Shown: positions 5,126-56,088, counted from the first letter of the stretch. The stretch is DNA of 64,000 bases from an uncultured Gammaproteobacteria bacterium (GCA_964503955.1 CAZDCG010000001.1:316210-380209), one strand, 5' to 3'. Numbers and translations are program-made. Notes: a model not told the origin generated them from the sequence alone.

Positions 5126-5371
5126 AGCTGATTTTCAGACAAAAGAGCGCAGGAGATTCTCGACTAGACAAGGCCCGCAAATCCTGCTAATTTATGGATG
5201 ACCCACCACTTTGAGGCGGGTCTTTCTTTCTAAAAACTCGACTTATTTTACTGCTAGTTCAGATGCAGAACGAGGAAGAAATGAGTACCGGACCGAAGCG
5301 ATCGTGAGTGATCGCAGAGGGAAGCACGGAATTTCTGACGAAGTGCTGCGCTGAAATCGCAGTAAAAGCAT

Positions 5372-5447
5372 GGACCGGTGGTGTAGCGGTTAACATGCCT
5401 CCCTGTCACGGAGGAGATCGCGGGTTCGATTCCCGTCCGGTCCGCCA
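5372..5447 (+). tRNA. tRNA-Asp (anticodon GTC)
   Basis: GGACCGGTGGTGTAGCGGTTAACATGCCTCCCTGTCACGGAGGAGATCGCGGGTTCGATTCCCGTCCGGTCCGCCA. The cloverleaf, CTGTCAC anticodon loop, GTTCGATTC T-loop and encoded CCA are very close to E. coli tRNA-Asp. Confidence 0.9.
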
Positions 5448-6628
5448 CGAAGAGCCCCGTATTCACGGGGTTTTTCGTTTTGGGGCGCGGGCGTGTTGCC
5501 CACGGGTTGCCCAAGGATTGCTGAAGTCGGCGCCAGTGTCGGCGTGAGCGGCCCCAACTGGAAGACGAAGGACGATACCTCTCGCGCCGGCGAGAGCGGC
5601 CGACGGTCAAGCCGATCGACGAACTCCTTGAGGCGAGAGGGCTCGAGGTGGCTGTAGCGCATGGTGACCCGAATGTCACTATGGCCCAGCAGTTCCTGCA
5701 CGACCTTGAGGTGAGCGCCCGTTGCCACGAGGTGCGAGGCGAAGGTGTGGCGCAGTACATGCCACCCGACTTTGCGGAGGCCGGCAGCGGCGCACGCTTG
5801 CTTGAGCACGCGCGCCATGGCGTCTTGGTCCGAGTGCTTGCGGCCCGCGTCTTGCCCGAAGACAAAGCCCCTGCGGTGCGGCCATGCCCTCAGTGCTTCC
5901 TTCACGTCCTCGCTGAGCGGCACGTGGCGGATCTTGTTGCTCTTGGGAGGGCCGAGGCGGCGTCTCACCAGTGCCCGCCTCACCGTCAGCAGGCTCCCCT
6001 CGAGGTCGACGTCGGACCAGTCCAGCGCCAGCAGCTCTCCCAGGCGGAGCCCGGTGCGCATGGCGACGAGCACGACTCCACGCCAGAACGTGTCCTTCAT
6101 GCTCCGCAAGAGACGTTCGCTCTCCTCCAGCGTGAGGAAGTCGAACGCCTGAGGTGGAACGGGAAGAAGCCGGATCTTCGGGCGGCGGTCGAGCTCGCCC
6201 CACTCCTCGGCAATGCTAAGAGCCCGGCCGAGGGCGGCCAGGTAGTTGTTGACGGTCTTGGGCGCATAACCCTCTGCGCGCCTCGCCGCCTTGAAGCTCT
6301 CGATCAGCTTGGGGGAGATCTCATCGAGCCCGCACTCCCCGAAGAAGGGCAAGAGCTGACGGTCCAGAATAGACCGCTTCGTGCGCTGCTCGGAGTGGCG
6401 GTTGTTGGGCACGACGTACTCTCGGTACCACCGCTCGGCGAACTCCGCGAAAGTGGTGGCCTTGACGACAGGTGCGTCTGGATCAAAGCCGAGCGCGAGC
6501 TGGCGGCGGAAGTAGGTTTCGTACGCGGCAGCGCCCGCCCGGCTGCTTTCCGGGCTCTTGCGGCGATAGCGGATGCCAGCGTGGCGGAAGTCAATCCACC
6601 AGCGGTTGCGGATCTTGCGAGCGCTCAT
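5390..6628 (-). CDS. int: tyrosine-type site-specific integrase (phage-integrase family)
   Basis: Core-binding and catalytic domains with R...HVLRHTFASHLV (HxxR)...RVTMRYSHL (catalytic Tyr). The ORF runs with no stop through the att core and into the tRNA on the opposite strand, so the last ~60 codons are probably not authentic or reflect the recombinant junction. Confidence 0.9.
   Translation of the reverse strand: MSARKIRNRWWIDFRHAGIRYRRKSPESSRAGAAAYETYFRRQLALGFDPDAPVVKATTFAEFAERWYREYVVPNNRHSEQRTKRSILDRQLLPFFGECGLDEISPKLIESFKAARRAEGYAPKTVNNYLAALGRALSIAEEWGELDRRPKIRLLPVPPQAFDFLTLEESERLLRSMKDTFWRGVVLVAMRTGLRLGELLALDWSDVDLEGSLLTVRRALVRRRLGPPKSNKIRHVPLSEDVKEALRAWPHRRGFVFGQDAGRKHSDQDAMARVLKQACAAAGLRKVGWHVLRHTFASHLVATGAHLKVVQELLGHSDIRVTMRYSHLEPSRLKEFVDRLDRRPLSPAREVSSFVFQLGPLTPTLAPTSAILGQPVGNTPAPQNEKPREYGALRGGPDGNRTRDLLRDREAC
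5424..5448 (+). repeat. attL core (within tRNA-Asp 3' end)
   Basis: Exact 25-nt match to 9326-9350. Confidence 0.85.
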
Positions 6629-6894
6629 GGGGTGTTGTCGTCAACGGAGCCCACGCGGTGCTTGGCCAAGTAGGCCGCCAGGTCCTCCCGCGAGAAGCGC
6701 AGACTGCGGAGTACGCGGTGGAAGGGCAGCCGGCGCTGCTCCACAAGTCTGTAGACGCTGGCCCTGGAGATACCCAGCTGGCGGGCGACCTGGTCTGGCG
6801 TGAGGAGAAGGGGCGGCAAGGCGTGGTCCGGACGATGATGCCGTGGTTGGGCCGAATTGCGCAAATCCGGACTGTGGATAAGATCGTTGAGCAT
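6625..6894 (-). CDS. xis: excisionase/AlpA-like helix-turn-helix DNA-binding protein
   Basis: LLTPDQVARQLGISRASVYRLVEQRRLPFHRV is the HTH_17/Xis signature; overlaps the int start by 4 nt (xis-int operon). Confidence 0.7.
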   Translation of the reverse strand: MLNDLIHSPDLRNSAQPRHHRPDHALPPLLLTPDQVARQLGISRASVYRLVEQRRLPFHRVLRSLRFSREDLAAYLAKHRVGSVDDNTP

Positions 6895-7074
6895 GTTTTA
6901 TGTGGCTAAGGCTAGCGGAGAATCTATGTCCTCCCGCCCGGCAGGGACACGAACCTCGGTCGGTGTCCCTGCCAGGGTGACGGCGGCGCGAGGTGCGGCC
7001 GCACAGGCGCGAGGGCGCCCGGGAGGTGGCCAGCGGTGAGCTGGCCACGCCCGTGCCCGGGCGCTTCCGACCGG

Positions 7075-7635
7075 TCACGAGCTTGGCCTTCTCGTAGGCG
7101 GGAGAATCTTCTGCTCAATCAGATATGCCGCACCCACGGCTGCAGCGTCGAACATGTTGAGCCAGAAGGTCTCCTTCCACGCGTGGGTCTGGATCTTGTA
7201 AATCGCTAGTTCGGGGTAACGACGAATGATCTCGGTGGCGACAGTGGGCTTCTTGGCGTTTCCGTTCAGGCAGAGAATCGCTCGCGCTGAGCGCGGGGCA
7301 TACTCGACGACCAAGCCGTCGACGACGACGACCCGCTGCTCTCCGCTAGTGCGGACCGTCACCCGGTCGTTCACGACGACGGCGTCGCCGCTTCCGGGCT
7401 CGAGATCGAAGAACGTCTGCTGCTCGTCTTGGCTCACCCGGCAATCGTGCCTTACGGCCTCGTTGCCGCAAGGCAATAACGGGACACGTTCTGGTCCGCG
7501 CAATTGCCCGAGCGCTCCCGGGCCAAGCCCGCCTGTAGCGGCATCAGCAGGCGCTACGAGCCGCCGGCGGAGTCGAAAGGCGGACACATTGCGGTCCGCA
7601 GCTACCCGGCTGCCAGCCCTGCTACGACAGGGCAT
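7075..7635 (-). CDS. island cargo, hypothetical protein (start uncertain; the N-terminal ~60 codons may be non-coding)
   Basis: Only non-low-complexity frame in GC-rich DNA; the C-terminal ~110 aa (VVVNDRVTVRTSGEQRVVVVDGLVVEYAPRSARAILCLNGNAKKPT...IYKIQTHAWKETFWLNMFDAAAVGAAYLIEQK) is globular-looking; no family recognised by eye. Confidence 0.35.
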   Translation of the reverse strand: MPCRSRAGSRVAADRNVSAFRLRRRLVAPADAATGGLGPGALGQLRGPERVPLLPCGNEAVRHDCRVSQDEQQTFFDLEPGSGDAVVVNDRVTVRTSGEQRVVVVDGLVVEYAPRSARAILCLNGNAKKPTVATEIIRRYPELAIYKIQTHAWKETFWLNMFDAAAVGAAYLIEQKILPPTRRPSS

Positions 7636-7975
7636 GTCAGGAGGTCTGGAGTCTGGAGGAGGTGCGCGCCCACTTCCGGCGCCGCCTCGACGCCTACGTC
7701 TGCGAGGTCATGACCGAGCGCGCGTCCGCGCGCGCGGCGCTGGCCCCCAGGAAGGCCGACGATCGCAGCGCGACACTCCCCTACGGCTGCGGGACCTACT
7801 GGCTGGTCCGCTTCCACGGCGCGTCATGCGAGCACGCCCCGCCGGCCTGAGCGGCGAGCCGGGCCGCCGCGACGCGAGGCGCCCGGCGCGAGCGAGCTCG
7901 ATTGCGCGGCGCGCAGGCCGAGCGTGGATCGACGGAGCGCTGGAGCTCGCGGACGGCGCGGCAGTACCTGCCCAC

Positions 7976-8611
7976 TCACTGACCAGGACGAGGCGGAGCA
8001 TGCGCGAGAGCACTGAACTCGCCTACGTTCTGCATGGCATAATCAATAAGGCAATCATAAACGCGATCGCACTCGCCCTCAAAATTTAGAAACACCCTAC
8101 CCACAACGGTATCCTCCAAGCGCCCGTCGTATGCCCCGATACTCTCCAAGAACTCTCGACGTGCGTCGAGGTCTAGATGGGGATTTGGCCCTGGGAATGC
8201 GGCTACCGCCTCCGCCAAGTAACGAGCGGCATCGCGTGCCCCTATCTCCTCCAATGCCTGCACAAAAACAGAATACGACGGATTCCCGCCCCCGGCGAGA
8301 AGGTAGCAGTAGGCGTCGAGCAGAAACGGCTTGGCCTGGTCGAAGTCGAGCCAGATCAGGGCGTCAGCAATTTGACACCGCTCGCCAAAGTCGGCAAAAT
8401 CAAGAACGCTCACGTGGGGTGTTTCCTCGTGGGCCAGGATCCAGTTTACGCTGGACCTGGGGTAGCAGGTGGCTCCACCGCCTGCTGCCCGAACCCAGCA
8501 CTTGATCCCCCTGGCAGCCCTGGCGCAGTCAGGGGGTTTTCGTTGCAGGAGGGCGTGATCGATAGGCCGAGGGTGCTGCACCCGGCAAAAACAACGGACA
8601 GCATGGCACAA
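7976..8611 (-). CDS. island cargo, hypothetical protein (likely starts at the internal GTG near VSVLDFADF; ~145 aa)
   Basis: Conserved-looking region ...LDFADFGERCQIADALIWLDFDQAKPFLLDAYCYLLAGGGNPSYSVFVQALEEIG...; the N-terminal part of the long ORF is Cys/Arg-rich junk typical of wrong-frame GC-rich DNA. Confidence 0.4.
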   Translation of the reverse strand: MCHAVRCFCRVQHPRPIDHALLQRKPPDCARAARGIKCWVRAAGGGATCYPRSSVNWILAHEETPHVSVLDFADFGERCQIADALIWLDFDQAKPFLLDAYCYLLAGGGNPSYSVFVQALEEIGARDAARYLAEAVAAFPGPNPHLDLDARREFLESIGAYDGRLEDTVVGRVFLNFEGECDRVYDCLIDYAMQNVGEFSALAHAPPRPGQ

Positions 8612-8727
8612 ATAACGGCGATGACGGCTACTTTGCTAGTCGAGCCACCACTCTCGCGGCCAGTGGTCTGTGCATAGCCCTTGACAGTTAAGGAATTATG
8701 AACCAATCTCTGCCTAGAGTCGCTCAC
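8446..8727 (-). CDS. possible small lipoprotein (signal peptide + FAGC lipobox), island cargo
   Basis: Alternative frame overlapping the 5' end of the previous ORF: ...KVAVIAVICAMLSVVFAGCSTLGLSITPSCNENP... has a classic n-h-c lipoprotein signal; ends just before the probable GTG start of the downstream gene. Confidence 0.25.
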   Translation of the reverse strand: MSDSRQRLVHNSLTVKGYAQTTGRESGGSTSKVAVIAVICAMLSVVFAGCSTLGLSITPSCNENPLTAPGLPGGSSAGFGQQAVEPPATPGPA

Positions 8728-9325
8728 CTTTGTCCTCCCGTGGAAGGGTGCGCGATCCGCTGCTCCGGGAGCACCAGATCCGCCACCTGTGGCCTTGCTC
8801 CAGGTGCGTCAACACCCGGGGCTCGCGGCTCAGCGGCCCCCGAGGTCTACAGCTTCGGGGGTCTTCTCGCGCGAAAACCGATCTGACGATTCCGTGTGTC
8901 GGGCCCAGAGTCAACTGATTTCCCAACGACAGAATGAAAACCTCTCCACACCTTCTCAACGTCCGAGGCAGGGGCGCGTAACGCGCTGTTCTGTCAGGCC
9001 TTGCTCTTCGCGCGCGGTGGAGAGCAGGGCGAGAGTGACCAGGGCACAGACGGACAGGAGTCGCCTCCCTCGCTCCCGCTGCGAGATCGTCTTGTGGGAC
9101 GAGAGAGCAGTCGGACGAGATCCCACCGAGTCAGCGACTTGGCACCTGTGGCCGGTCTGGTCGTCCATGAGCTCCGGCGTTGACCGTTGCCCACCGATTG
9201 CCCAGGAAGTGCGGATTCAGCGGGGAAACAGCGCTGAACTGACCTGAGCTGAGAATCTCGATTCTGAGCTAAGGTTAGAGGAATTCCGCTAGAGCTAGCG
9301 ACGCTTCCGCTTTCGCCTCCTGCGC

Positions 9326-9350
9326 GTTCGATTCCCGTCCGGTCCGCCAC
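9326..9350 (+). repeat. attR core (duplicated tRNA-Asp 3' end)
   Basis: Exact 25-nt match to 5424-5448 with no tRNA body upstream of it. Confidence 0.85.
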
Positions 9351-9413: not shown

Positions 9414-10421
9414 TTGTTTATGGCTTTAGCGTCTCTCTTCTTGCTGCTTTCCTTCCTGAGTTTTCTGGCCTTAGTCATCGGGCTTGTTGACCCTCAGGTG
9501 ATCAGCAATATCACGCGGCAAACGTTATCAAGAAAAGAAATCACTCTCCGTTTTAGTTTGGTCATGATGGCAAGTTTTATTCTCACCGTTGTATTCACTC
9601 CAATCGACCAGGATTATGAGCAAGCCGTAAAATTAGCTGATGAGCCTCGTATAGAAGAATCTGCAAGTTCAATAGCTTTTACGGGCAGCGAGGAGGAACT
9701 CGCAAAGATAACCGATGCTGAGGAGGCTGAGAATTCTACCGAGCAAATAACGCAACAAGCATTGGCCGTCGATGAAGAGGAAGCGGATTACGCCACAAAT
9801 ATCTATCCCGTAAAACAGATCATCGACGGGGATACGATTGACATTGAAGTTAATGGAAACATCACTCGTATTCGTATGATCGGCCTGGATTCTCCTGAAA
9901 AAGACCAATGTTATTTTCAAGATGCAAAAAATAAAATCGCAAGTTTGCTGTCAGGCACATCGGTGACTCTTGAGTATGATCCAAGCCAGGGAGAAAAAGA
10001 CCGATATGGACGCACCCTGGCTTATGTTTTTTTGAAAGACGGAACAAATGTTCAGCAAATCTTGATTCGAGAGGGTTTTGCAAAAGAATACACCTACAAT
10101 ACGGCTTACAAATATCAGACGCTCTTTAAAGAAGCCCAAGAAGAAGCAAAATCAAAAGGTCTGGGCATCTGGAGTTCAGCCTGTGCCGCCCCGGCGCAGC
10201 CGGTCGCAGTAATTCCAGAAGAAAAAGAAACAGCAACAACGCCTCCCCCAGCAGCGCCCGATCTTGTGACATACAATTGCTCTGCCAATGTCTACAACTG
10301 CGCCGACTTCTCCTCTCATCAAGAAGCGCAGGAACTTTACGAATACTGTCTGAAGCAAAGAGGATATGATGTTCACGCTCTCGACCGAGACAAAGACGGG
10401 CTGGCTTGCGAATCTCTCTAA
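9414..10421 (+). CDS. membrane-anchored thermonuclease (SNase-like) with C-terminal Excalibur Ca-binding domain
   Basis: N-terminal TM helix, SNase core (IIDGDTIDIEVNG...RIRMIGLDSPE...RYGRTLAYVF) and C-terminal DRDKDGLACE Excalibur motif. Confidence 0.85.
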   Translation: MFMALASLFLLLSFLSFLALVIGLVDPQVISNITRQTLSRKEITLRFSLVMMASFILTVVFTPIDQDYEQAVKLADEPRIEESASSIAFTGSEEELAKITDAEEAENSTEQITQQALAVDEEEADYATNIYPVKQIIDGDTIDIEVNGNITRIRMIGLDSPEKDQCYFQDAKNKIASLLSGTSVTLEYDPSQGEKDRYGRTLAYVFLKDGTNVQQILIREGFAKEYTYNTAYKYQTLFKEAQEEAKSKGLGIWSSACAAPAQPVAVIPEEKETATTPPPAAPDLVTYNCSANVYNCADFSSHQEAQELYEYCLKQRGYDVHALDRDKDGLACESL

Positions 10422-10910
10422 GATTTTTTACCAAAATAGCTGCGCACAGCCTATCTACTCCAGATTCAATATCGGCGTTCTGTCTTATCCTTCGATACCC
10501 CTCAACGAGAAAAGGGAAATTGCCACCCAAAACGAACAGTGCTCCCCTCGACCGTGACTGATCGAGAGAAGCACCGATGATCATGGACTGCGAGAGCTTG
10601 CGGCCGCGCGGACCGCTCTGGCCGCCGCCAGCGTTGTCGCCCTTGCAGCAGATATGGCTTTCGTGCATCTCGCTTGTGGACAGCAACTGCGGTTGAGTCC
10701 CTTCAGGGTGGACATACGGCACCAAACCATCCCGCAACCATCTATTAGGCGCAGGACATCAAAGAATAGAACCTCTTAAGAAACTCGTCAAGGAATAAAG
10801 CCAGTCTCATTGCTTACCTTGACAATCCCCTTATTTTTGCCTACTCTCGTTGAACACCTCCTTTCTGAAAAGCGATGTCTGTCTCATCTTTTTTCAGAGA
10901 GGAGGTCTTT

Positions 10911-11123
10911 ATGACCGCGAGATACCAGGACACTCCGATGATCGAAGACGGGTCGACGACCGAGGCCTACACCGAGGACGACCGCGTGCACATGATCTGC
11001 TGCATCGAGCGCGGCCGGCGAGCGGGCAGCTGCTTCCGCCCCCGGCTGAGCACCAAGAAGCAGACTGACCGTACTTCGCGCCGCCTCAACGCCGAGCGCT
11101 CCCCGGCGCTCACCACCATCTAG
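10911..11123 (+). CDS. small GC-rich protein (70 aa) with consensus promoter and SD-sequestering leader
   Basis: TTGACA-17-TACTCT promoter at ~10819-10848; the leader cctcctttctgaaaa...ttttcagagaggagg can pair to occlude the GAGAGGAGG SD; ATG 7 nt after the SD; peptide carries an HMICC motif. Confidence 0.4.
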   Translation: MTARYQDTPMIEDGSTTEAYTEDDRVHMICCIERGRRAGSCFRPRLSTKKQTDRTSRRLNAERSPALTTI

Positions 11124-11276
11124 CCGGCAGACTTCGTTCTGCCCGGCCACGCTCGCGCCTACAGATGCTGTCTGTGGGCGCGCTTTCGTTTATGCAAAAG
11201 ATACATAGATGGGGAGCTGCTTACACACCAACAGAGTCATTGCCCGCCGCATCCTTCTGCGGTACGCTTTTGGCAT

Positions 11277-13334
11277 ATGACTATTACATTTCCTTCACGA
11301 CAAGTTTATACGACAAGCATCGTCCTTGGTGCATTCCTGCTCTTTCTTATCCAACCCATGATCAGCAAATTTATCCTGCCGTGGTTTGGCGGCGGGCCGG
11401 GAGTTTGGACCATGGCGCTTGTCTTTTTCCAATGCGCGCTGCTGCTTGGCTATCTCTATGCGCATCTGCTTGGCAGGCTGTCCCTGAAAAAACAGGGATT
11501 TATTCATGGGACATTATTGCTGCTCAGCTTGATCTTTCTGCCCATTATTCCCGATCTCGCGCATGTGCCCGAATGGCCGCAGCCGGGTTTTCGCATTCTC
11601 TTTCTGCTGAGCGCGACAATCGGCTTGCCCTATTTGCTTTTGGCGTCGACTTCGCCTCTTATGCAGCATTGGCTGGCCAAAACTGAGCAGACAGAAAGCA
11701 AGACATACCGTCTCTACGCGCTGTCAAACGCGGCCTCGCTTTTAGGACTTGGCATGTATCCGTTCATTCTTGAACCGCTGTTTGGACTGCGCGCGCAAGC
11801 CTGGATCTGGTCAATTTTCTTTCTGCTCTTTGCCGCTTCAAGCGGATACTGCGCCTGGAAACTGCGAAAAGAAAAAGATGACCAGCTGCAACATGAGGCG
11901 GGCTCAGCTCCTCTCTCGCCTTTGAGAAAAAGCGTCTGGTTCTTTCTGCCAGCCATAGGCGTGGTTCTATTGCTTTCCGTTACCAATCAGCTGACAATCG
12001 ATATCGCGCCAACGCCTTTTCTCTGGGTGCTGCCCTTAAGCGTGTATTTGATCAGCTTTATTCTGTCATTCGGGCAATCCCGTTGGTATGAACGGCGCTG
12101 GTATTTTCCTCTCTTCCTGATTTCAGTCATGTCCATTCTCTGGCTTTTGCTTCAACGCCCTCATCTGCCAACGCATCAGACCATCCTTATTTTTATCACG
12201 CTGCTTTTTGCGGGCACCATGATTTGCCATGGCGAACTCGCGCGCCAAAAACCGGCAACTGAATATTTGACGGAATTCTATTTGCTTCTTTCCGCCGGCG
12301 GCGCGGGCGGAGGTTTGTTTGTAGGACTACTCGCGCCGATTCTCTTTAACGGCTATTGGGAATTCCCGCTCTCCATCGGCATCCTCGTCGTCATGGTCTG
12401 CACCATTGCTTTTTCACATTCCAGGTCTCCTCTGCATTACAGGCGCTCGCTGCTGCGCACCGTCGCATTCGCGCATTTTGGCGTGATCATGCTCGCCGGC
12501 TTCTTTTTTTACGCGCGCGACTTTGGTTCAGACGCGGTGTTCATGGACCGGAATTTTTATGGCATCCTCCGTGTCAGAGACCGCGCGCAGGACGATCCTG
12601 AATTCGCATTCAGAGAATTGCTCAATGGAACAACCTTGCACGGTAGCCAGCTGCTGGCGCAAGACAAGCGCGGCCTGGCAACGACCTACTATGGAGAAAC
12701 AAGCGGGCTTGAACTTGCTTTTCTCTCAAGACGAACAGAAACGCCTTTGCGCGCGGGCGTGATCGGGCTTGGAGCCGGAACAACTGCCGCCTATGGACGC
12801 CCGCAGGATCACTTTCGCTTTTACGAAATCGATCCGGATGTGGAGGATGCCGCGCGCGAATACTTCACCTTTCTTTCGGATTTTCCCGGGCAGGCTGAAG
12901 TGATAACTGGAGACGCGCGGCTCTCGCTTGAAGAGGAAGAAAACCAGGAATTTGACGTTCTGGCTATCGACGCGTTCAGCAGCGACGCGATTCCCTTTCA
13001 TCTGCTGACCAAAGAAGCCTTTGACATTTACCTGCGTCATCTCAAACAGGACGGCATCATTGCCGTGCATATTTCCAATCGCTATCTTCGGCTTGAACCG
13101 GTCGTACTCGCCTTGCGCGACGCGTTCAATCTGGAAGCGAGAATCGTGGAGAGCGCAGACCGCGTGCCAAATTACGTTTCATCAAGCACCTGGATTCTGC
13201 TCAGTCCTGAGCCTATGGTATTCGCGGATGCGCTCTTTGCCGACACGCAACAGGAAGATGAAAGCGGCATTGCCCCTATCCTCTGGACCGATGACAAAAA
13301 TAGTCTATTTGATATCGTAAAACTGTCTTTTTGA
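11277..13334 (+). CDS. polytopic membrane protein fused to a spermidine-synthase-like (aminopropyltransferase/methyltransferase fold) domain
   Basis: ~12 TM N-terminal region; C-terminal GVIGLGAGTTAAY...FDVLAIDAFSSD...DGIIAVHISN matches the SpeE-like fold. Confidence 0.75.
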   Translation: MTITFPSRQVYTTSIVLGAFLLFLIQPMISKFILPWFGGGPGVWTMALVFFQCALLLGYLYAHLLGRLSLKKQGFIHGTLLLLSLIFLPIIPDLAHVPEWPQPGFRILFLLSATIGLPYLLLASTSPLMQHWLAKTEQTESKTYRLYALSNAASLLGLGMYPFILEPLFGLRAQAWIWSIFFLLFAASSGYCAWKLRKEKDDQLQHEAGSAPLSPLRKSVWFFLPAIGVVLLLSVTNQLTIDIAPTPFLWVLPLSVYLISFILSFGQSRWYERRWYFPLFLISVMSILWLLLQRPHLPTHQTILIFITLLFAGTMICHGELARQKPATEYLTEFYLLLSAGGAGGGLFVGLLAPILFNGYWEFPLSIGILVVMVCTIAFSHSRSPLHYRRSLLRTVAFAHFGVIMLAGFFFYARDFGSDAVFMDRNFYGILRVRDRAQDDPEFAFRELLNGTTLHGSQLLAQDKRGLATTYYGETSGLELAFLSRRTETPLRAGVIGLGAGTTAAYGRPQDHFRFYEIDPDVEDAAREYFTFLSDFPGQAEVITGDARLSLEEEENQEFDVLAIDAFSSDAIPFHLLTKEAFDIYLRHLKQDGIIAVHISNRYLRLEPVVLALRDAFNLEARIVESADRVPNYVSSSTWILLSPEPMVFADALFADTQQEDESGIAPILWTDDKNSLFDIVKLSF

Positions 13335-14120: not shown

Positions 14121-14522
14121 TTAGGCGACCTGGGAATCGCCATTCTCGTGCGTGCCGAGAGCACCCGCGAACAACTCGCTGACCACGAACTCCCATTCGT
14201 TGCCATGCCCGTGCAATGCTCCGCAAATGGTCAGCTTCTGCGTGGCAACAAGCTGCTCTCCCTGCTTCTTCCATCCGACAGGCTTCTCATGATGAATCAC
14301 AATTTCAGAGAACGATTCACCCTGCACGATCATTTCCCGGATCGCCTGCAGGAACTTGTGCCGAACCGCTTGGTCGCGGAAGACATCGTAGGGCCGCTTA
14401 TAGCAGGTAAATGTACCTGCCTTTTCCCGGCCGCTAAAGCGGCAGCGAAGCGAGAGTTCGCGCTCTGGTTTGATCACCACCTGCAGCGGACGCTCCGTGT
14501 CGATTTTCATGTGAAACAGCAT
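14121..14522 (-). CDS. hypothetical protein, paralog A of a tandem pair (133 aa)
   Basis: Strong SD (AGAGGGGGA); shares MLFx...F.CYKRPYDVFRDQ...EKPVGWKKQGEQ...TICG...EWEF with the neighbouring ORF. Confidence 0.5.
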   Translation of the reverse strand: MLFHMKIDTERPLQVVIKPERELSLRCRFSGREKAGTFTCYKRPYDVFRDQAVRHKFLQAIREMIVQGESFSEIVIHHEKPVGWKKQGEQLVATQKLTICGALHGHGNEWEFVVSELFAGALGTHENGDSQVA

Positions 14523-14729: not shown

Positions 14730-15128
14730 TCAGGCGGCGGACATGGCGGGAACAGCGTTTTGCTCCACGCAGCCTGCAGCCAGATCTTCCAGAGTGATAA
14801 CCCACTCCTGTTCTCCGGGCTCGATCCGCCCGGCGATGGTGATGGTGTTGGAGGGCTTGCCGTCCTGCCCCCAGCCGACTGGCTCCTGGTCGTAAAGCTC
14901 GCAACGGAATGCGCTCTGCTCGGGCAGAAGCTTGCGCACATGCTCGACCAGCTGGCGGCGCAGAGGCTGGCGCTTCAGCACGTCGACGTAACGCCGAAAC
15001 GCGAAGAAACTGCCGGGAACCGGCTTGGCATCCACCAGGCATAGCTTGCGCCGCAACTTGCCGATGCGGCTGGAACAGAGGCAGAAGAGAAATCGGGTTT
15101 CCGGATCGGGACGCGTATAGAAGAGCAT
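14730..15128 (-). CDS. hypothetical protein, paralog B of the tandem pair (132 aa)
   Basis: SD AAAGGGG; MLFx...FFAFRRYVDVLKRQ...QEPVGWGQDGKP...TIAG...EWVI aligns with paralog A over the full length. Confidence 0.5.
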   Translation of the reverse strand: MLFYTRPDPETRFLFCLCSSRIGKLRRKLCLVDAKPVPGSFFAFRRYVDVLKRQPLRRQLVEHVRKLLPEQSAFRCELYDQEPVGWGQDGKPSNTITIAGRIEPGEQEWVITLEDLAAGCVEQNAVPAMSAA

Positions 15129-15739
15129 GACGGCCCCTTTCTTATTTTTGCCGAATCAACCATCATGCGGATGCAAACGATAAACGTCAACGAAACAGGG
15201 CCTTGTTTTTGACAAAATGTGATGACGAAAGCCCGTGGGGGGGCCAGGTTTCTAAAACAAACGAACTTTTCAGACTCATAGAAAATGACTATCTTCACAT
15301 CGTCACCCCCGCGGAGAAAGTTACTCTTTGCGAAGCAAAGTCTAAACATCGCCAGCGGGGGTCTCATTCTTTAAGAGGCATCGAACAGCCCCCCTCACTC
15401 AGTTGATCTCTTTCGATGCTTGATCCCGTCCCCCCTAAACAGGGGGAAGAGTAGGTGGAGGTATACGGAGAAGCGGAGGGATTATAAAGCCTATTCGGGC
15501 GCGGGGCTCCCTCCTTCGCTAAAGGCTTCGGCGGGCACGCTGTCTCCGCCCGGCACTATTACGTGAAATGGTAAAAATGCTTCACTGTATTGAGCTCCCA
15601 AAGGAAAGATCTGAAACCTGAATTCTGAATTCCGGATCTCTATCTGAGGCGGCTCAGAGTCAGAATTCCGATCCAGATTTCAGAATCCAGAGAGAATCTT
15701 CATTCTGACTGCCAAACGATTCCCTAAGAAAGCACGAAC

Positions 15740-15785
15740 CCCGGCCGCTCCTTGAGAGAGCAACCGGGGTCGTTTGTTGCACTTG
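15740..15785 (-). terminator. rho-independent terminator of the lipoprotein gene (ccccgg...ccgggg + U-rich)
   Basis: On the minus strand, the hairpin gaccccggttgctctctcaaggagcggccggggt is followed by tcgtgctttctt. Confidence 0.5.
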
Positions 15786-15788
15786 GTG

Positions 15789-16874
15789 CTAGGGCTTGAA
15801 CTCCCAGACCTCGTGCTTGTCAGCATCGTAGAAGTAGGTCACGCCGTTATGCGGCTGGCCATCGTCCGAGACGCGGAAGTAGCTGTCGACGACGAACGGA
15901 GCGTCTGCCCCGCTCTGGCGCGTGAAGCTGTTGTCTGCCAGGTCGTAGACGTGCACCCGGTAGCCGGACGGCTGCGCGTCGTCCCTGAGCAGGAAGATCC
16001 TGCCGTTTCCGGCGAAGAGCACATCGCCGCTGATGCCGTCCGGGTGCGTGGCCCCCAGCGTCACCATCGGCTTGGACATGGCCAGCGTGGCGGGCAGGTC
16101 AATGCTCACGACGCGGCGGTTCTCGTTGACCTGCGCCTGTGACAGGTAGTACCCGCCGCCGAGGATGACGAAGGTGTCACCCACCACCGTGCCCAGGCCG
16201 CGGTGCGGGATGGCATCGAGGTCCTGCGTGGTGATCACGTCCCAGGTGTCGGTGCTCTCGTTGAACACATCCAGGCTGGCCTGCCGTTCGAGCTCGAAGC
16301 GGCTGATGTAGCCGTGGCCGGCCAGCAGGCGGTACATCCGCCCGTTGTAGACGAAGTAGTAGCCCTGCTCGTGGGCCGAAGCCGACAGCTTGACCCAGCC
16401 GTTCTGGCCGAGCCGCAGCATGGCCCCAACCGGCGCGGGACTGGGCGGCCACGCCAGCGAGGGCTGGATGGCGTAGAGCGCCTGCGCGGTTCTGAGCAGG
16501 GTCGCGCCGCTGTTCTCCAGGACATTGGGCACGACCATGCCGCCGAGCGGCGAGGAGGCGCCGTTCAGGTTGAACTTGGCGGCCTTGCTCGACACGTCCT
16601 CACCGACGGGGTTGGACGGGTCGTTCACGATCCCGCCCATGATGTGGACCTCCCGCAGCACCGGGTCGAAGTTGAACCCGGGCCCGGTCCAACCGATCTT
16701 GGCCGAACCGGCGACGAGCGAGGAGTCGAGCGTGGCCACCTTGGTCCAGGTGGCGTTGATGACGTTGGCCGTCGTGACGGCCGAAGTGCCGGGCGAAGTC
16801 GAACGGCTGGTATTGCAGCCGGCCAGGACGATCAGCAGCCCGCAGAGAGCCGCGGAAGCGAAAACGTGTCGCAT
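15789..16874 (-). CDS. GC-rich lipoprotein, hypothetical (possibly beta-propeller-like)
   Basis: Lipoprotein signal MRHVFASAALCGLLIVLAGC; TTGACA-17-TATTTT promoter and GGAGAGGGG SD upstream; GC content clearly above neighbours. Confidence 0.6.
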   Translation of the reverse strand: MRHVFASAALCGLLIVLAGCNTSRSTSPGTSAVTTANVINATWTKVATLDSSLVAGSAKIGWTGPGFNFDPVLREVHIMGGIVNDPSNPVGEDVSSKAAKFNLNGASSPLGGMVVPNVLENSGATLLRTAQALYAIQPSLAWPPSPAPVGAMLRLGQNGWVKLSASAHEQGYYFVYNGRMYRLLAGHGYISRFELERQASLDVFNESTDTWDVITTQDLDAIPHRGLGTVVGDTFVILGGGYYLSQAQVNENRRVVSIDLPATLAMSKPMVTLGATHPDGISGDVLFAGNGRIFLLRDDAQPSGYRVHVYDLADNSFTRQSGADAPFVVDSYFRVSDDGQPHNGVTYFYDADKHEVWEFKP

Positions 16875-17060
16875 TGATCAAATTCCCCTCTCCGTTGATC
16901 ACCCCTGAATGAAGTGATCAGCGAAAATAGCATGATTTTGCTCATTTGTCAAATATCTAACGCTTGATCCCAATCCGTCAGAGAGGAGGATAAGAAGGAG
17001 AAGGAAGAATCATTCGCGCCCCTGGCAACTTATGAGAGCGTCTGCTATCATAGCTCCACT

Positions 17061-33973: not shown

Positions 33974-34288
33974 ATGAAGAAAAACAAGGACGAGAGCGGC
34001 CACCGCAGCGGTAGCCGAAAGAAGATCAGCAAAAAACACACAACATCCATCAAGGAAGCAGGCGCACTCGTTGATGCCGCGCTGAGGCTTCCCAAAGTGA
34101 AAATCTCCCTCGGGGAGATTAGACCGATCCCGGGAGGCCGGCCGCGCCTCAAGTTCGCGCCGGTGCATGGCGGGCACAAGGTCACGGTCCGTGGCCGCAC
34201 AGCCATCCAGTACGTCATGGTCTACTCGCCCCAGCCAGAGCAGACCAAGGCCGCCCTCGAGGCGCTCTTCAACGAGAAGTTCGGCTGA
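33974..34288 (+). CDS. hypothetical basic protein (104 aa) in a GC-rich patch
   Basis: TTGACA-type promoter and AAAGGGG SD; no recognisable family. Confidence 0.4.
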   Translation: MKKNKDESGHRSGSRKKISKKHTTSIKEAGALVDAALRLPKVKISLGEIRPIPGGRPRLKFAPVHGGHKVTVRGRTAIQYVMVYSPQPEQTKAALEALFNEKFG

Positions 34289-34954: not shown

Positions 34955-35269
34955 TTACTTGATCTTCTGGCCGATGATCCTCGACAGGTCGTGAACGAAT
35001 GCCTGCCTGAGCCGCGCGCCGCCGCTGCGGCTGCGGCGGATGAAGATGTTCATGGACAGCATGATGCGCCCATCCATCGCCTTGATCTGCTTGAGATCAG
35101 CGACATTGAACAGGCACTGGTCCTCGCTGACGGAAGCGTTGATGTCGTTGCCGAGCTCGAGCAGCTCGCCGGCCACGGTCGGGGAGAAGTTTCCCCAGAC
35201 CCTGATCCGGACATCGTCGGCATCGATCCTGGTGCAAAGTTCGTTTTCCGTGTGAGTGATCGTTTCCAT
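34955..35269 (-). CDS. hypothetical protein (104 aa) in a GC-rich patch
   Basis: Strong AGGAGG SD 7 nt upstream of ATG; no recognisable family. Confidence 0.4.
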   Translation of the reverse strand: METITHTENELCTRIDADDVRIRVWGNFSPTVAGELLELGNDINASVSEDQCLFNVADLKQIKAMDGRIMLSMNIFIRRSRSGGARLRQAFVHDLSRIIGQKIK

Positions 35270-46947: not shown

Positions 46948-47841
46948 TTACGACTGCGTGCCGGCGGGTACATCTTCAAGCGCGCTGCGGAATCCGAATT
47001 CGCGCAGGCACCAGCGCTCAACCGATCCCCCTTTCCGCACCGGATTATCCGCCTCCTGCGGATCAGCATCCTGAGGCCAGACAGCGTCCGGCGTGAAGTT
47101 GGTGAACCAGACAAGACTTACCTTGGTCCAGCTCGCCTTGGGCACGCCATGCTCCACGGCGGACGAGCGGTTGCCACAGAGCCAGAGCGAAAGCGACTTC
47201 CCGAAATTGTGGACGATAAGAGGCCCCGGGCCTTCCACCTCCACATCAAAGAGCACTCCGTTCCGGCGGATCTGAAACGGCTTTTGAAAAACCAATCCAG
47301 CGACCGCGCTGGTATCAAGGTGCATCTTGGAAAAGCCGGTCTTGGCCTGGTACCGATTGATCCGTCCGGCCGAAAAGACTCCATGCGCGCTCAGAGCTTC
47401 GCGCAGCTCCTGCACGTCCCGTCCGTAGAAGCGGGCGGCGGCGCTGGCCGCTGCCACATTGGAACGATGCAGCAGCATGCTCACCCTGAGCAGACGGTCG
47501 GTAGACGCGCGCAGGGTCTCGGGAAATCCTCCCTCCATTTGGAAACTGTAGTAGTCCTTGTTCTCCGGCTCTTGCTCGCCCTCCTGAGTCTCCCTGCCGG
47601 TAGCCGTGGGACCTCGCATGCCATGATGCGTGCGCGGACATTGCCGGAGAATCTCATTCCACTCCTCAAAGAGGCGGTAGCAGAACTCCATGGTGCGGGA
47701 GAAGTCTGTTCCCCGAAACGGCAGGTGGGAGACAGCCGTTACCCCCCATTCGTGAAGCTCTGCGCCGGCTTGGGCGGCCTCAGTGCTGTTCACGTCTTCA
47801 AGCAGCGGAAACGGTCTGGCCTTGAGCATGAGTCGAGGCAT
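46948..47841 (-). CDS. hypothetical protein in a GC-rich patch (start at MPRLMLK after an AGGAGGG SD)
   Basis: Clean ORF in a GC-rich region with an SD; no family recognised. Confidence 0.45.
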   Translation of the reverse strand: MPRLMLKARPFPLLEDVNSTEAAQAGAELHEWGVTAVSHLPFRGTDFSRTMEFCYRLFEEWNEILRQCPRTHHGMRGPTATGRETQEGEQEPENKDYYSFQMEGGFPETLRASTDRLLRVSMLLHRSNVAAASAAARFYGRDVQELREALSAHGVFSAGRINRYQAKTGFSKMHLDTSAVAGLVFQKPFQIRRNGVLFDVEVEGPGPLIVHNFGKSLSLWLCGNRSSAVEHGVPKASWTKVSLVWFTNFTPDAVWPQDADPQEADNPVRKGGSVERWCLREFGFRSALEDVPAGTQS

Positions 47842-47998
47842 CAAGCCCTCCTTTTCGAGAGGAGAATAGCATGCTCGAACAGACCTTGTCATTAGTTGCG
47901 AGCTGCGGGTTACAAGTTGAAGGGCAAGCAATGGATGAATCTCTCATAAACAAATCCAGGGATTTTGCCCTGGATTTTCCGGTTTTTTCTAACAATCC

Positions 47999-54177: not shown

Positions 54178-54212
54178 CTTGACATTCCGCTTTTTATCCC
54201 GTATTCTCAATC
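54178..54212 (+). promoter_or_regulatory. sigma70-like promoter TTGACA-17-TATTCT for the small-peptide gene
   Basis: cTTGACAttccgctttttatcccgTATTCT; the same architecture as the promoter of the 10911 small gene. Confidence 0.5.
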
Positions 54213-54288
54213 ATTATTCTCCTCTCCGGTTCTCTGCTTTGCTGCCGGCAGAGAACTGGAAAATCATTTCCAGTAGAGGAGGCTGTGT

Positions 54289-54468
54289 ATGTTCAAGCCC
54301 AGCAACGCCGCTACCAAGCCCGAGTGCGTGGCCCCCTGCAAGGAGGTGAGCGATCCGTTCGCGTCCTCCGAACAGGAGGTGCGCCGCGACGGCAACGGTG
54401 CAGCGCAGCTGGACGATGGTCCCTGCGAGGATCTGTACGACGACAACTTCTACGCCGGCGCCGACTAG
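54289..54468 (+). CDS. small acidic Cys-containing peptide (59 aa), not in the ORF track
   Basis: AGAGGAGG SD; the leader ttctcctctcc can pair with the SD; MFKPSNAATKPECVAPCKEVSD...DDGPCEDLYDDNFYAGAD; followed by an 11-bp perfect hairpin terminator (gaccccgattc...gaatcggggtc). Confidence 0.4.
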   Translation: MFKPSNAATKPECVAPCKEVSDPFASSEQEVRRDGNGAAQLDDGPCEDLYDDNFYAGAD

Positions 54469-54756
54469 CGCCCGCCGCCACCGTCGCAAGACACCAAGAC
54501 CCCGATTCGTCATCCGTGACACAAGAATCGGGGTCTTCTACGTTTCTCCCTCGTCACCTTATCCTTAATCTTCCCCTTAAACGAAAAGGAGGAGAACCTG
54601 AAGGATAAGAAAAACAAGCAACCCGCGAACTCGCTAACCCGTTAACTCGTCAACACGTTAACGCTTTTGACAAATCCCCCACCCAAACCTACGCTGTAGT
54701 TACATCCTATCAGCGGTTTTCCTACAGCCTACCTCCTACCGCCTTGAACCTAACCT

Positions 54757-55929: not shown

Positions 55930-56088
55930 CTATGCCGCGTCGGACTTGTTCGATTCCTCCTCGACCTGCTGCTCCGCCACGACAGGCAGCCTGTCGCTGA
56001 GACTGGTCAGGTACTCGGCCTCCCGGTCGAGCACCTTCCTGTCCACGCCGGGATCGTTCTCGTGCTCGTCATCGATCATGTGAAACAT
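55930..56088 (-). CDS. small acidic protein (52 aa) in a GC-rich patch, not in the ORF track
   Basis: GGTGGGGGG SD 4 nt before ATG; MFHMIDDEHENDPGVDRKVLDREAEYLTSLSDRLPVVAEQQVEEESNKSDAA; a bidirectional hairpin terminator (aaaggtccgg...ccggaccttt) is shared with trpS. Confidence 0.3.
   Translation of the reverse strand: MFHMIDDEHENDPGVDRKVLDREAEYLTSLSDRLPVVAEQQVEEESNKSDAA

What the first reader, a model, noticed from the sequence alone, without database searches (positions are those of the whole stretch)
10560..11123. Divergent pair of small H-x-I-C-C peptides, one intact with an SD-occluding leader and one apparently decayed
The intact gene (10911..11123, 70 aa) has a TTGACA-17-TACTCT promoter almost superimposable on the 54178 promoter. 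Its leader contains cctcctttctgaaaa...ttttcagagaggagg, so the anti-SD can pair with the SD (a translational switch or thermosensor-like element). On the opposite strand, ~200 bp away, the reading frame from 10737 encodes ...EMHESHICCKGDNAGGGQSGPRGRKLSQS..., which aligns with the intact peptide's ...DRVHMICCIERGRRAGSCFRPRLSTKKQ..., but it lacks a nearby stop and runs into the nuclease gene. Both copies sit in short GC-rich patches. This looks like a pair of paralogous small peptide genes arranged head-to-head, one of which is pseudogenised.
Basis: seen in the sequence. Interest (0 to 1): 0.5.

Follow-up and report, generated by a model that had tools for sequence, protein, structure and literature searches.

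The report
Orphan small gene with locked ribosome site
A 70-codon orphan gene with its own promoter, terminator and a very stable 5' hairpin that buries its ribosome-binding site is real and is kept in one related genome, but the "decayed twin" on the opposite strand is an unrelated stretch that resembles it only by chance.

Summary
The ORF at 10911..11123 has a TTGACA-17-TACTCT promoter, AGGAGG 5 nt before the ATG, and an intrinsic terminator. Its GC by codon position is 0.54/0.56/0.90, against GC3 of 0.30-0.62 in the host-type genes. A 17+4 bp hairpin (-29.9 kcal/mol, z -5.5) fully buries the SD.

A relative about 95% identical (Logan SRR19086438) keeps the whole cassette. Its ORF is intact (4 synonymous, 3 non-synonymous changes). 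Leader changes fall only in unpaired positions.

The paralogy claim fails:
- The peptide alignment scores 26, and 12.8% of shuffles do as well.
- The DNA shares only one 10-mer.
- In the relative, the DNA left of the promoter is a NUDIX gene, not the minus-strand patch.

The minus-strand patch has its own promoter and terminator but no intact ORF.

The thermosensor idea is unlikely, because the SD stays paired up to 85 C in silico. The peptide has no homologue among 1.84 billion representative proteins.

A second cassette with the same design lies at 54179-54540. In this window all 8 GC3-rich genes carry strong SDs, while 35 of 39 host-type genes have none.

Verdict: a lineage-restricted small gene that is probably translationally locked. 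Interest is modest.

The parts
10819..10847 (+). Sigma-70-type promoter of the 70-aa gene: TTGACA, 17 nt, TACTCT. Predicted start of transcription is about 10854.
   Evidence: Pattern search. Conserved in relative L008, where the -10 reads TATTCT.
10856..10906 (+). 5' leader hairpin. The anti-SD arm 10856-10872 pairs with the SD arm 10890-10906 (17 bp). There is a 1x1 internal loop, a 4-bp upper stem (10874-10877 with 10885-10888) and a 7-nt loop.
   Evidence: Fold -29.9 kcal/mol, z -5.5. The relative keeps every pair; its only changes are a bulge C-to-U and a 4-nt loop deletion.
10900..10905 (+). Shine-Dalgarno AGGAGG, 5 nt before the ATG, fully inside the 3' arm of the hairpin.
   Evidence: Sequence. 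Duplex with CACCUCCUUUCU is -17.6 kcal/mol. P(unpaired) is 0.001 at 37 C.
10911..11123 (+). 70-codon ORF (p70). The product is hydrophilic, with an acidic N-half and a basic C-half, and has no homologues.
   Evidence: GC by codon position 0.54/0.56/0.90, chi-square p 4e-6. Intact in relative L008 with 4 synonymous and 3 non-synonymous changes. Only self-hits in protein searches.
11124..11192 (+). 3' end of the unit: hairpin 11124-11147, then an intrinsic terminator with a 13-bp stem at 11154-11182 and tail CTTTCGTTTA.
   Evidence: Terminator scan. Whole-mRNA fold. 100% identical in the relative.
10763..10791 (-). Divergent sigma-70-type promoter on the minus strand: TTGACG, 17 nt, TATTCT. Absent at this position in the relative.
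   Evidence: The alignment loses homology left of ~10808.
10528..10756 (-). Predicted ~225-nt minus-strand transcript containing the GC-rich 'HICC' patch. It has no intact ORF. The HICC frame has no strong SD and no stop before the terminator. The 49-aa frame that stops at 10581 has a non-coding GC pattern.
   Evidence: Its fold is not unusual apart from the terminator (z -1.8).
10537..10576 (-). Intrinsic-terminator-like hairpin of the minus-strand unit: 17-bp stem, tail TTCGTTTTGG.
   Evidence: fold.
54179..54540 (+). Second cassette with the same design. Promoter TTGACA-17-TATTCT (54179-54207). Leader in which CUCCUC (54219-54224) pairs with GAGGAG (54276-54281) around a 14-bp inner stem. 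59-codon GC3-rich ORF at 54289..54468. Terminator at 54497-54538.
   Evidence: GC3 0.87; -35.9 kcal/mol, z -4.1.

Best explanation
Window ~10808-11192 is a self-contained transcription unit for a lineage-restricted small protein (p70, 70 aa).

How it most likely works:
- A near-consensus sigma-70 promoter makes an mRNA whose first ~55 nt fold into a 22-bp-equivalent hairpin.
- In that hairpin a 5' copy of the anti-SD sequence (ACCUCCUUUCU...) pairs with the extended SD (AGAGAGGAGGU).
- The primary transcript is therefore translationally closed, and its 5' end is probably protected from decay.
- Translation then needs an opening step. The most likely one is endonucleolytic processing of the long perfect stem, in the manner of RNase III. 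A trans-acting RNA or protein is the alternative.
- An intrinsic terminator ends the unit.

p70 belongs to a minority class of genes in this SD-poor, Planctomycetota-like genome. These genes are GC3-rich and SD-led.

The minus-strand GC patch at 10528-10791 is a separate promoter-plus-terminator unit with no intact ORF. It is either a small RNA or a gene relic. It lies next to p70 only in this genome and is not a paralogue of it.

What is shown: the anatomy, the fold, the composition, retention in one relative, and the lack of paralogy. What is inferred: translation of p70, the closed default state, and the activation step.
For: Anatomy.

Coding signal: GC3 is 0.90 against 0.54/0.56 at positions 1 and 2, p 4e-6.

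SD strength: AGGAGG sits 5 nt from the ATG, with a duplex energy of -17.6 kcal/mol.

Hairpin: -29.9 kcal/mol, z -5.5. The SD is about 99.9% paired at 20-45 C.

Relative L008:
- The cassette is 94.9% identical and the ORF is intact.
- There are 4 synonymous and 3 non-synonymous changes, pN/pS 0.24.
- All 42 paired leader positions are unchanged. The two leader changes fall in the 9 unpaired positions.
- The hairpin still folds at -28.8 kcal/mol.
- A 4-nt loop deletion puts the upstream ATG at 10875 out of frame, which fixes 10911 as the start.

Same design at 54179-54540. These are the only two long-range CCUCC...GGAGG leaders in the window.

Gene classes: 8 of 8 GC3-rich genes have a strong SD against 4 of 39 host-type genes (Fisher 1.6e-6). 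Planctomycetes are reported as an SD-poor phylum (PMC5397173).

No paralogy.

The pair is not conserved.
Against: - There is no expression or proteomic evidence.
- Only one relative is available, ~95% identical, so pN/pS is not significant (p 0.06).
- The structural support amounts to two events. If placed at random, both would fall in unpaired positions with probability (9/51)^2, about 0.03.
- The peptide has no homologue, no Pfam, PHROG or NCBIfam hit, and a low-confidence, mostly disordered AF2 model (pLDDT 59.5).
- In GC-rich DNA, long ORFs arise easily. An antisense frame sharing the third positions also shows GC3 of 0.92.
- The activation step is conjecture.
- The 280-nt stretch with zero divergence (10999-11276) could reflect recombination or an assembly switch rather than constraint.
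- p70 is absent from NCBI's protein set for this genome.
Confidence: 0.6

Rival explanations
1. Two paralogous H-x-I-C-C small-peptide genes lie head to head. The plus-strand copy is intact and the minus-strand copy is pseudogenised.
For: Both contain ICC preceded by H, at the same offset (codons 29-31) from the mechanical start codons. Both lie in GC-rich patches and each has a sigma-70-like promoter. The minus-strand frame lacks a stop before its terminator.
Against: The alignment score is within the shuffle range: 12.8% of shuffles reach it for protein and 58% for DNA. BLASTP and tblastn find nothing. The orthologue reads HMVCC. The relative lacks the minus-strand unit next to the cassette. 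Periodicity of the patch is weak.
Confidence: 0.04
2. The plus-strand unit makes a structured non-coding RNA, or a transcription-attenuating leader. The 70-codon ORF is an untranslated by-product of GC-rich sequence.
For: The whole transcript is unusually structured (z -4.6). The ORF is an orphan. The AF2 model is mostly disordered. The SD is buried. The hairpin is followed by UCUUUAU, which could terminate early. The 3' part and its hairpins are 100% conserved, while the first 29 codons vary.
Against: GC3 of 0.90 with p 4e-6 is a coding signature. There is a perfect SD-ATG geometry. The ORF is intact in the relative, with synonymous changes exceeding non-synonymous changes per site. There is no Rfam match.
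Confidence: 0.15
3. The leader is an RNA thermometer that opens the SD on a temperature upshift.
For: The SD is sequestered by a cis anti-SD hairpin, which is the general thermometer design.
Against: The helix is near-perfect and far too stable. The predicted SD-unpaired probability is 0.001 at 45 C, 0.014 at 75 C and 0.04 at 85 C. There is no match to ROSE, FourU or any other Rfam thermometer.
Confidence: 0.04
4. The locus is a type I toxin-antitoxin-like module. p70 is a toxic peptide made from a translationally inert mRNA, and the divergent minus-strand RNA is its antitoxin.
For: The mRNA is translationally closed. A divergent ~225-nt RNA gene with promoter and terminator lies 27 bp away. 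That geometry resembles tisB/istR-1 and zorO/orzO (from my own knowledge).
Against: p70 is hydrophilic: GRAVY -0.96 and a maximum 19-residue hydropathy of -0.04, so it has no membrane helix. There is no complementarity between the two RNAs beyond chance. The relative has the cassette without the divergent unit. The sister cassette at 54179 has no divergent partner.
Confidence: 0.05
5. p70 is a recently acquired foreign, moron-like gene from a high-GC, SD-using donor. The hairpin merely silences or stabilises it, with no dedicated regulation.
For: The unit has its own promoter and terminator, and an atypical composition confined to the ORF. A 66% GC integrative island lies 1.5 kb away. SDs are confined to the GC3-rich class.
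Against: The GC3-rich, SD-led state is old in this lineage. The 361-aa GC3-rich gene keeps GC3 of 0.78 and an SD at the same locus in a relative with only 56% protein identity. The promoter and leader have host-like composition. No donor homologue exists in any database searched. p70 lies outside the att-bounded island.
Confidence: 0.12

Closest known systems
Translationally inert primary transcripts that need processing, such as type I toxin mRNAs (tisB, zorO, hok) and the RNase III-activated adhE mRNA (recalled from the literature, not tested here)
   Same: A 5'-UTR structure sequesters the SD, so the full-length mRNA is closed. A long, near-perfect stem of about two helical turns is the kind of substrate RNase III cuts.
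   Different: There is no hydrophobic toxin, no complementary antisense RNA, and no evidence of processing. The sequences are unrelated.
RNA thermometers (ROSE, FourU)
   Same: A cis anti-SD pairs with the SD in the 5' UTR.
   Different: The helix is perfect over 17 bp and about -30 kcal/mol. It does not melt below ~90 C in silico. There is no Rfam match.
5' stem-loop mRNA stabilisers (ompA type)
   Same: The hairpin begins about 3 nt from the predicted 5' end in both cassettes.
   Different: Known stabilisers do not normally include the SD of the gene they protect.
Phage 'morons' (autonomous promoter-ORF-terminator units of atypical composition)
   Same: The unit has its own sigma-70 promoter, its own intrinsic terminator, and a GC content unlike its flanks.
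   Different: The context is chromosomal, not a prophage. The compositional class is old and syntenic in relatives.

Membership tests
   BLASTP finds nothing at E<=100. Smith-Waterman scores 26 against 21.2 +/- 3.8 for shuffles, p 0.13. The DNA shares only a 10-mer, p 0.58.
   The orthologue reads HMVCC. The relative has NUDIX and tRNA-Asp in place of the minus-strand unit.
RNA thermometer | SD or AUG sequestered by a cis helix | tested here: met
   The SD lies within the 17-bp stem.
RNA thermometer | Helix melts in the physiological temperature range | tested here: not met
   P(SD unpaired) is 0.001 at 37-45 C and 0.04 at 85 C. This is an in-silico result only.
RNA thermometer | Match to a curated thermometer family | tested here: not met
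   There is no relevant Rfam hit, even at E<=10.
Type I toxin-antitoxin | Small hydrophobic, membrane-active toxin | tested here: not met
   GRAVY is -0.96 and no 19-residue window exceeds -0.04.
Type I toxin-antitoxin | Antitoxin RNA complementary to the toxin mRNA | tested here: not met
   There are no direct repeats above chance. The leader duplex energy is no better than shuffles.
Type I toxin-antitoxin | Toxin mRNA translationally inert until processed | tested here: inconclusive
   The closed SD is predicted. Processing cannot be tested with these tools.
Moron-like autonomous cassette | Own promoter, own terminator, and composition unlike the flanks | tested here: met
Moron-like autonomous cassette | Resides in a prophage or mobile element | tested here: not met
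   It lies outside the att-bounded island at 5448-9350. There are no phage or plasmid matches.
Protein-coding small gene | Codon-position signal, start signals, and an ORF kept in relatives | tested here: met
   There is only one relative, so support is moderate.
Protein-coding small gene | Translation product observed | not testable with these tools
   This needs Ribo-seq or proteomics.

The most novel reading that the evidence does not exclude
In this SD-poor, Planctomycetota-like lineage, a distinct and long-lived class of GC3-rich genes depends on strong SDs. A subset of small ones (p70, p59) are made as 'locked' mRNAs, in which a 5' mimic of the 16S anti-SD tail clamps the SD. This would be a lineage-specific post-transcriptional gate, for example opened by RNase III or a trans factor, that controls a family of orphan small proteins.
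Probability: 0.2. Interest if true: 0.55.

Novelty: new member of a known kind. Interest (0 to 1): 0.3.

Why it matters
If p70 and p59 are translated only after their leaders are opened, they would be examples of tightly gated orphan small proteins in a poorly studied, SD-poor bacterial lineage. The clean split in this window (GC3-rich genes with strong SDs, ordinary genes with none) offers a natural system for asking when an SD-independent organism still uses SD-led initiation. By itself, the locus is an unannotated orphan small gene with a familiar type of cis-regulatory hairpin. The more striking claim, a decayed paralogue pair, does not hold.

Tried and rejected
Searches for p70 relatives
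- The word-index search found only p70 itself. The listing of cluster members found one 96%-identical variant.
- The full phmmer search over 1.84 billion representatives found p70 itself plus two tandem-repeat artefacts.
- Pfam, PHROGs and NCBIfam gave nothing.
- Two metagenome-contig scans and two viral-contig scans, with p70, the HICC-frame peptide and p59, gave nothing.
- blastn of 10422-11210 against plasmids and phages gave nothing.

Other dead ends
- Rfam, in gathering and E<=10 modes, returned only spurious microRNA or MAT2A-like hairpin hits on the leader.
- Synteny through the neighbouring 685-aa gene failed. The best non-self match is 48% identical and its context is unrelated.
- Complementarity between the divergent RNAs was not above chance. 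An earlier script for this timed out.
- AF2 on p70 gave pLDDT 59.5, with one short helix at residues 22-33. I did not take it to a fold search.
- A generic scan for SD sequestration over all ORFs was too noisy in the GC-rich regions to use.
- A literature search for SRR118438xx found a Cryptosporidium paper whose accessions (SRR11843786-813) do not include ours, so I discarded it.

Alternative readings of the minus-strand patch that I set aside
- The 49-aa frame ending at TGA 10581 has its highest GC at codon position 2 (0.48/0.77/0.60), which is not a coding pattern.
- The plus-strand 39-aa ORF at 10577..10696 shares the GC3 phase, but has no promoter and only a weak SD (-5.3 kcal/mol).

Full report
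CHECK OF THE OBSERVATION

- ORF 10911..11123 encodes 70 aa.
- TTGACA (10819-10824), a 17-nt spacer and TACTCT (10842-10847) precede it.
- The leader contains CCTCCTTTCTGAAAAG ... CTTTTTTCAGAGAGGAGG.
- The minus-strand frame starting at 10737 reads ...EMHESHICCKGDNAGGGQSGPRGRKLSQS... It stays open for 203 codons, antisense into the SNase/Excalibur nuclease gene at 9414..10421.
- Both stretches lie in GC-rich patches: 10513-10725 at 60% and 10901-11203 at 64%, in a window averaging 51.7% GC.

THE PLUS-STRAND UNIT

The plus-strand unit is a complete cassette.
- AGGAGG (10900-10905) lies 5 nt before the ATG.
- A hairpin (11124-11147) and a 13-bp intrinsic terminator (11154-11182, tail CTTTCGTTTA) follow the stop codon.
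- The high GC is concentrated at third codon positions. GC is 0.54/0.56/0.90 (chi-square p 4e-6), against GC3 of 0.30-0.62 for the ordinary genes of the window. This is a coding signature. It cannot by itself exclude the co-phased antisense frame, but that frame has no start signals.
- From the predicted transcription start (~10854) the RNA folds into a 17-bp perfect stem, a 1x1 internal loop and a 4-bp stem with a 7-nt loop. The energy is -29.9 kcal/mol, z -5.5, and 0 of 200 shuffles fold as well.
- The SD is entirely inside the 3' arm. The 5' arm, CACCUCCUUUCU, reads like the 3' tail of 16S rRNA.

ORPHAN STATUS AND THE ONE RELATIVE

The peptide has no homologue.
- The word-index search found only itself.
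- The full phmmer search against 1.84 billion representative proteins found itself plus two translated tandem repeats.
- Pfam, PHROGs, NCBIfam, IMG/VR and JGI metagenome scans, and plasmid and phage blastn, all found nothing.
- AF2 gives a low-confidence model with one short helix.
- The peptide is hydrophilic, with an acidic N-half and a basic C-half.

Listing its 90% cluster revealed a variant, P0127, with Q6P, A19V and I29V. It comes from Logan sample SRR19086438. Another contig from that sample (L006) matches window 15041-16958 at 92.6%, so it holds a closely related organism.

In the alignment of the p70 contig L008 with the window:
- The cassette is 94.9% identical from about window 10808 to the contig end at 11275.
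- The ORF is intact, with 4 synonymous and 3 non-synonymous changes. pN/pS is 0.24, p 0.06.
- All 42 paired leader positions are unchanged. The only leader changes are a C-to-U at the bulge and a 4-nt deletion in the loop. The variant folds at -28.8 kcal/mol.
- That deletion puts the upstream in-frame ATG (10875) out of frame, so 10911 is the conserved start.
- Nothing changes over 280 nt from 10999 to 11276. Given ~5% divergence elsewhere, this is unexpected. It could mean constraint, recent recombination or an assembly switch.

THE 'DECAYED PARALOGUE'

The similarity is not above chance.
- BLASTP reports nothing at E<=100.
- Smith-Waterman gives only ICC..G..AG, score 26, against shuffles of 21.2 +/- 3.8. 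12.8% of shuffles do as well.
- The DNA shares just the 10-mer ATCTGCTGCA, equalled in 58% of codon shuffles.
- tblastn of p70 against the window does not return the patch.
- The motif is not conserved in the true orthologue, which reads HMVCC.
- The pair is not a conserved unit. In L008 homology stops about 11 nt upstream of the -35. The DNA to the left is a NUDIX gene and then tRNA-Asp in the opposite orientation (L008 558-840 = window 5447-5164, 96.8% identical). It is not the nuclease and the patch.

The patch is not featureless.
- It has a 17-bp terminator hairpin at 10576-10537 with tail TTCGTTTTGG. Together these predict an RNA of ~225 nt.
- No frame in it is a convincing gene. The HICC frame has no strong SD and no stop before the terminator. 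The frame that stops at 10581 has its highest GC at codon position 2. Periodicity in the HICC phase is weak (p 0.03, matched by 37% of random windows).
- There is no complementarity to the p70 mRNA beyond chance.
- I read it as an independent small transcription unit. It is either a small RNA or the relic of an unrelated small gene, placed beside p70 by a rearrangement.

CONTEXT: A RECURRING DESIGN AND TWO GENE CLASSES

A second cassette at 54179-54540 has the same design:
- Promoter TTGACA-17-TATTCT.
- A leader in which CUCCUC pairs with GAGGAG around a 14-bp inner stem (-35.9 kcal/mol, z -4.1).
- A 59-codon acidic ORF with GC3 of 0.87.
- A terminator.

The two proteins are unrelated to each other. 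These are the only two long-range CCUCC...GGAGG leaders in the window.

The promoter resemblance reflects the organism's general consensus. The same type of site precedes trpS and other ordinary genes.

More broadly, all 8 GC3-rich genes in the window (GC3 >= 0.69) have strong SDs, with duplex energy <= -10.8 kcal/mol. By contrast, 35 of 39 ordinary genes have none, with a mean of -1.6 (Mann-Whitney p 5e-6, Fisher 1.6e-6). I chose two of the eight start codons with the SD in view.

The nearest relatives of the neighbouring 685-aa membrane methyltransferase-like protein are Planctomycetota/Phycisphaerales proteins at no more than 48% identity. Planctomycetes are reported as an SD-poor phylum (PMC5397173).

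The GC3-rich state is not a recent import. The 361-aa GC3-rich lipoprotein gene sits at the same locus, with an SD, in two relatives. It shows 88% protein identity with GC3 of 0.91 in one, and 56% protein identity with GC3 of 0.78 in the other. In the second relative the flanks are 85% identical.

MECHANISM

Shown:
- The anatomy.
- The stability of the hairpin and its retention in the relative.
- The buried SD.

Inferred:
- The primary transcript is translationally closed.
- Because the hairpin starts ~3 nt from the 5' end, the transcript is probably protected from 5'-end-dependent decay.

A thermometer is unlikely. The predicted SD-unpaired probability is 0.001 at 45 C and 0.04 at 85 C.

A near-perfect helix of about two turns is what RNase III cuts. 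Cleavage would remove the anti-SD arm and free the SD. I consider processing or a trans-acting opener the most likely activation step, but nothing here tests it.

A type I toxin-antitoxin reading fails on three points: the hydropathy of the peptide, the lack of RNA complementarity, and the absence of the partner in the relative.

VERDICT

- The paralogue-pair and thermosensor interpretations are not supported.
- The SD-occluding leader on a real, unannotated orphan small gene is supported.
- This is a new member of a known kind, a cis SD-sequestering leader on a lineage-specific small ORF.
- Interest is modest.
- The two-class pattern of SD use and the recurrence of 'locked' cassettes are the parts worth following genome-wide.

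Noticed in passing
window 5372-9350: tRNA-Asp(GTC) lies at 5372-5447. A 25-bp direct repeat, GTTCGATTCCCGTCCGGTCCGCCAC, occurs at 5424-5448 and 9326-9350. It bounds a ~3.9 kb, 66% GC integrative island with a tyrosine integrase (5390..6628, minus strand) and a DMP19-like ORF (7976..8611, minus strand).
   Followed up: partly
whole window; GC3-rich genes at 14121..14522(-), 15789..16874(-), 33974..34288(+), 34955..35269(-), 46948..47841(-), 54289..54468(+), 55930..56087(-), 10911..11123(+): There are two gene classes. All 8 GC3-rich genes have strong Shine-Dalgarno sequences. 35 of 39 ordinary genes (GC3 0.30-0.62) have none, and instead have G-poor, C/A-rich leaders. The GC3-rich state of the 361-aa gene persists at the same locus in a relative with only 56% protein identity.
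   Followed up: partly
window 54179-54540: A second 'locked' cassette: promoter, a leader hairpin closed by anti-SD/SD pairing, a 59-aa acidic orphan ORF (GC3 0.87), and a terminator. Like p70, it appears only in Logan gene calls and not in the NCBI protein set of the same genome.
   Followed up: partly
L008 (Logan SRR19086438) 558-1320 versus window 5164-5447 and ~10808: There is a rearrangement relative to the ~95% relative. In L008, tRNA-Asp is inverted and lies ~700 bp from the p70 cassette, with a NUDIX gene between them. The NUDIX gene is absent from the window. The nuclease and the minus-strand unit are not at this position in the relative.
   Followed up: partly
window 10999-11276: This 280-nt stretch has zero differences from the relative, whereas the preceding ~190 nt differ by ~8% and other loci by 3-7%. 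It could be a recombination tract, strong constraint on the 3' part and terminator region, or an assembly switch.
   Followed up: no
window 11240-11279: TTGCCC, 17 nt and TACGCT end 8 nt before the ATG of the 685-aa membrane spermidine-synthase-like gene (11277). This suggests a leaderless or nearly leaderless mRNA for that SD-less gene. This is read by eye.
   Followed up: no
window 15789..16874 (-) and loci L006, L007: The GC3-rich 361-aa putative lipoprotein (weak Kelch hits) evolves fast. It shows 88% protein identity (pN/pS 0.45) in a relative with 92.6% DNA identity. In another relative it shows 56% protein identity although the flank is 85% identical.
   Followed up: partly
window 47841-47871: The short palindrome CCTCCTTTTCGAGAGGAG lies between divergent start codons, so the SD-like sequence of each strand is the complement of the other.
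   Followed up: no
window 10438-10451 and 10421-10577: No plus-strand terminator follows the nuclease gene before 11154. A second minus-strand terminator-like hairpin lies at 10451-10438. The minus-strand RNA would therefore be antisense to any read-through 3' UTR of the nuclease mRNA.
   Followed up: no
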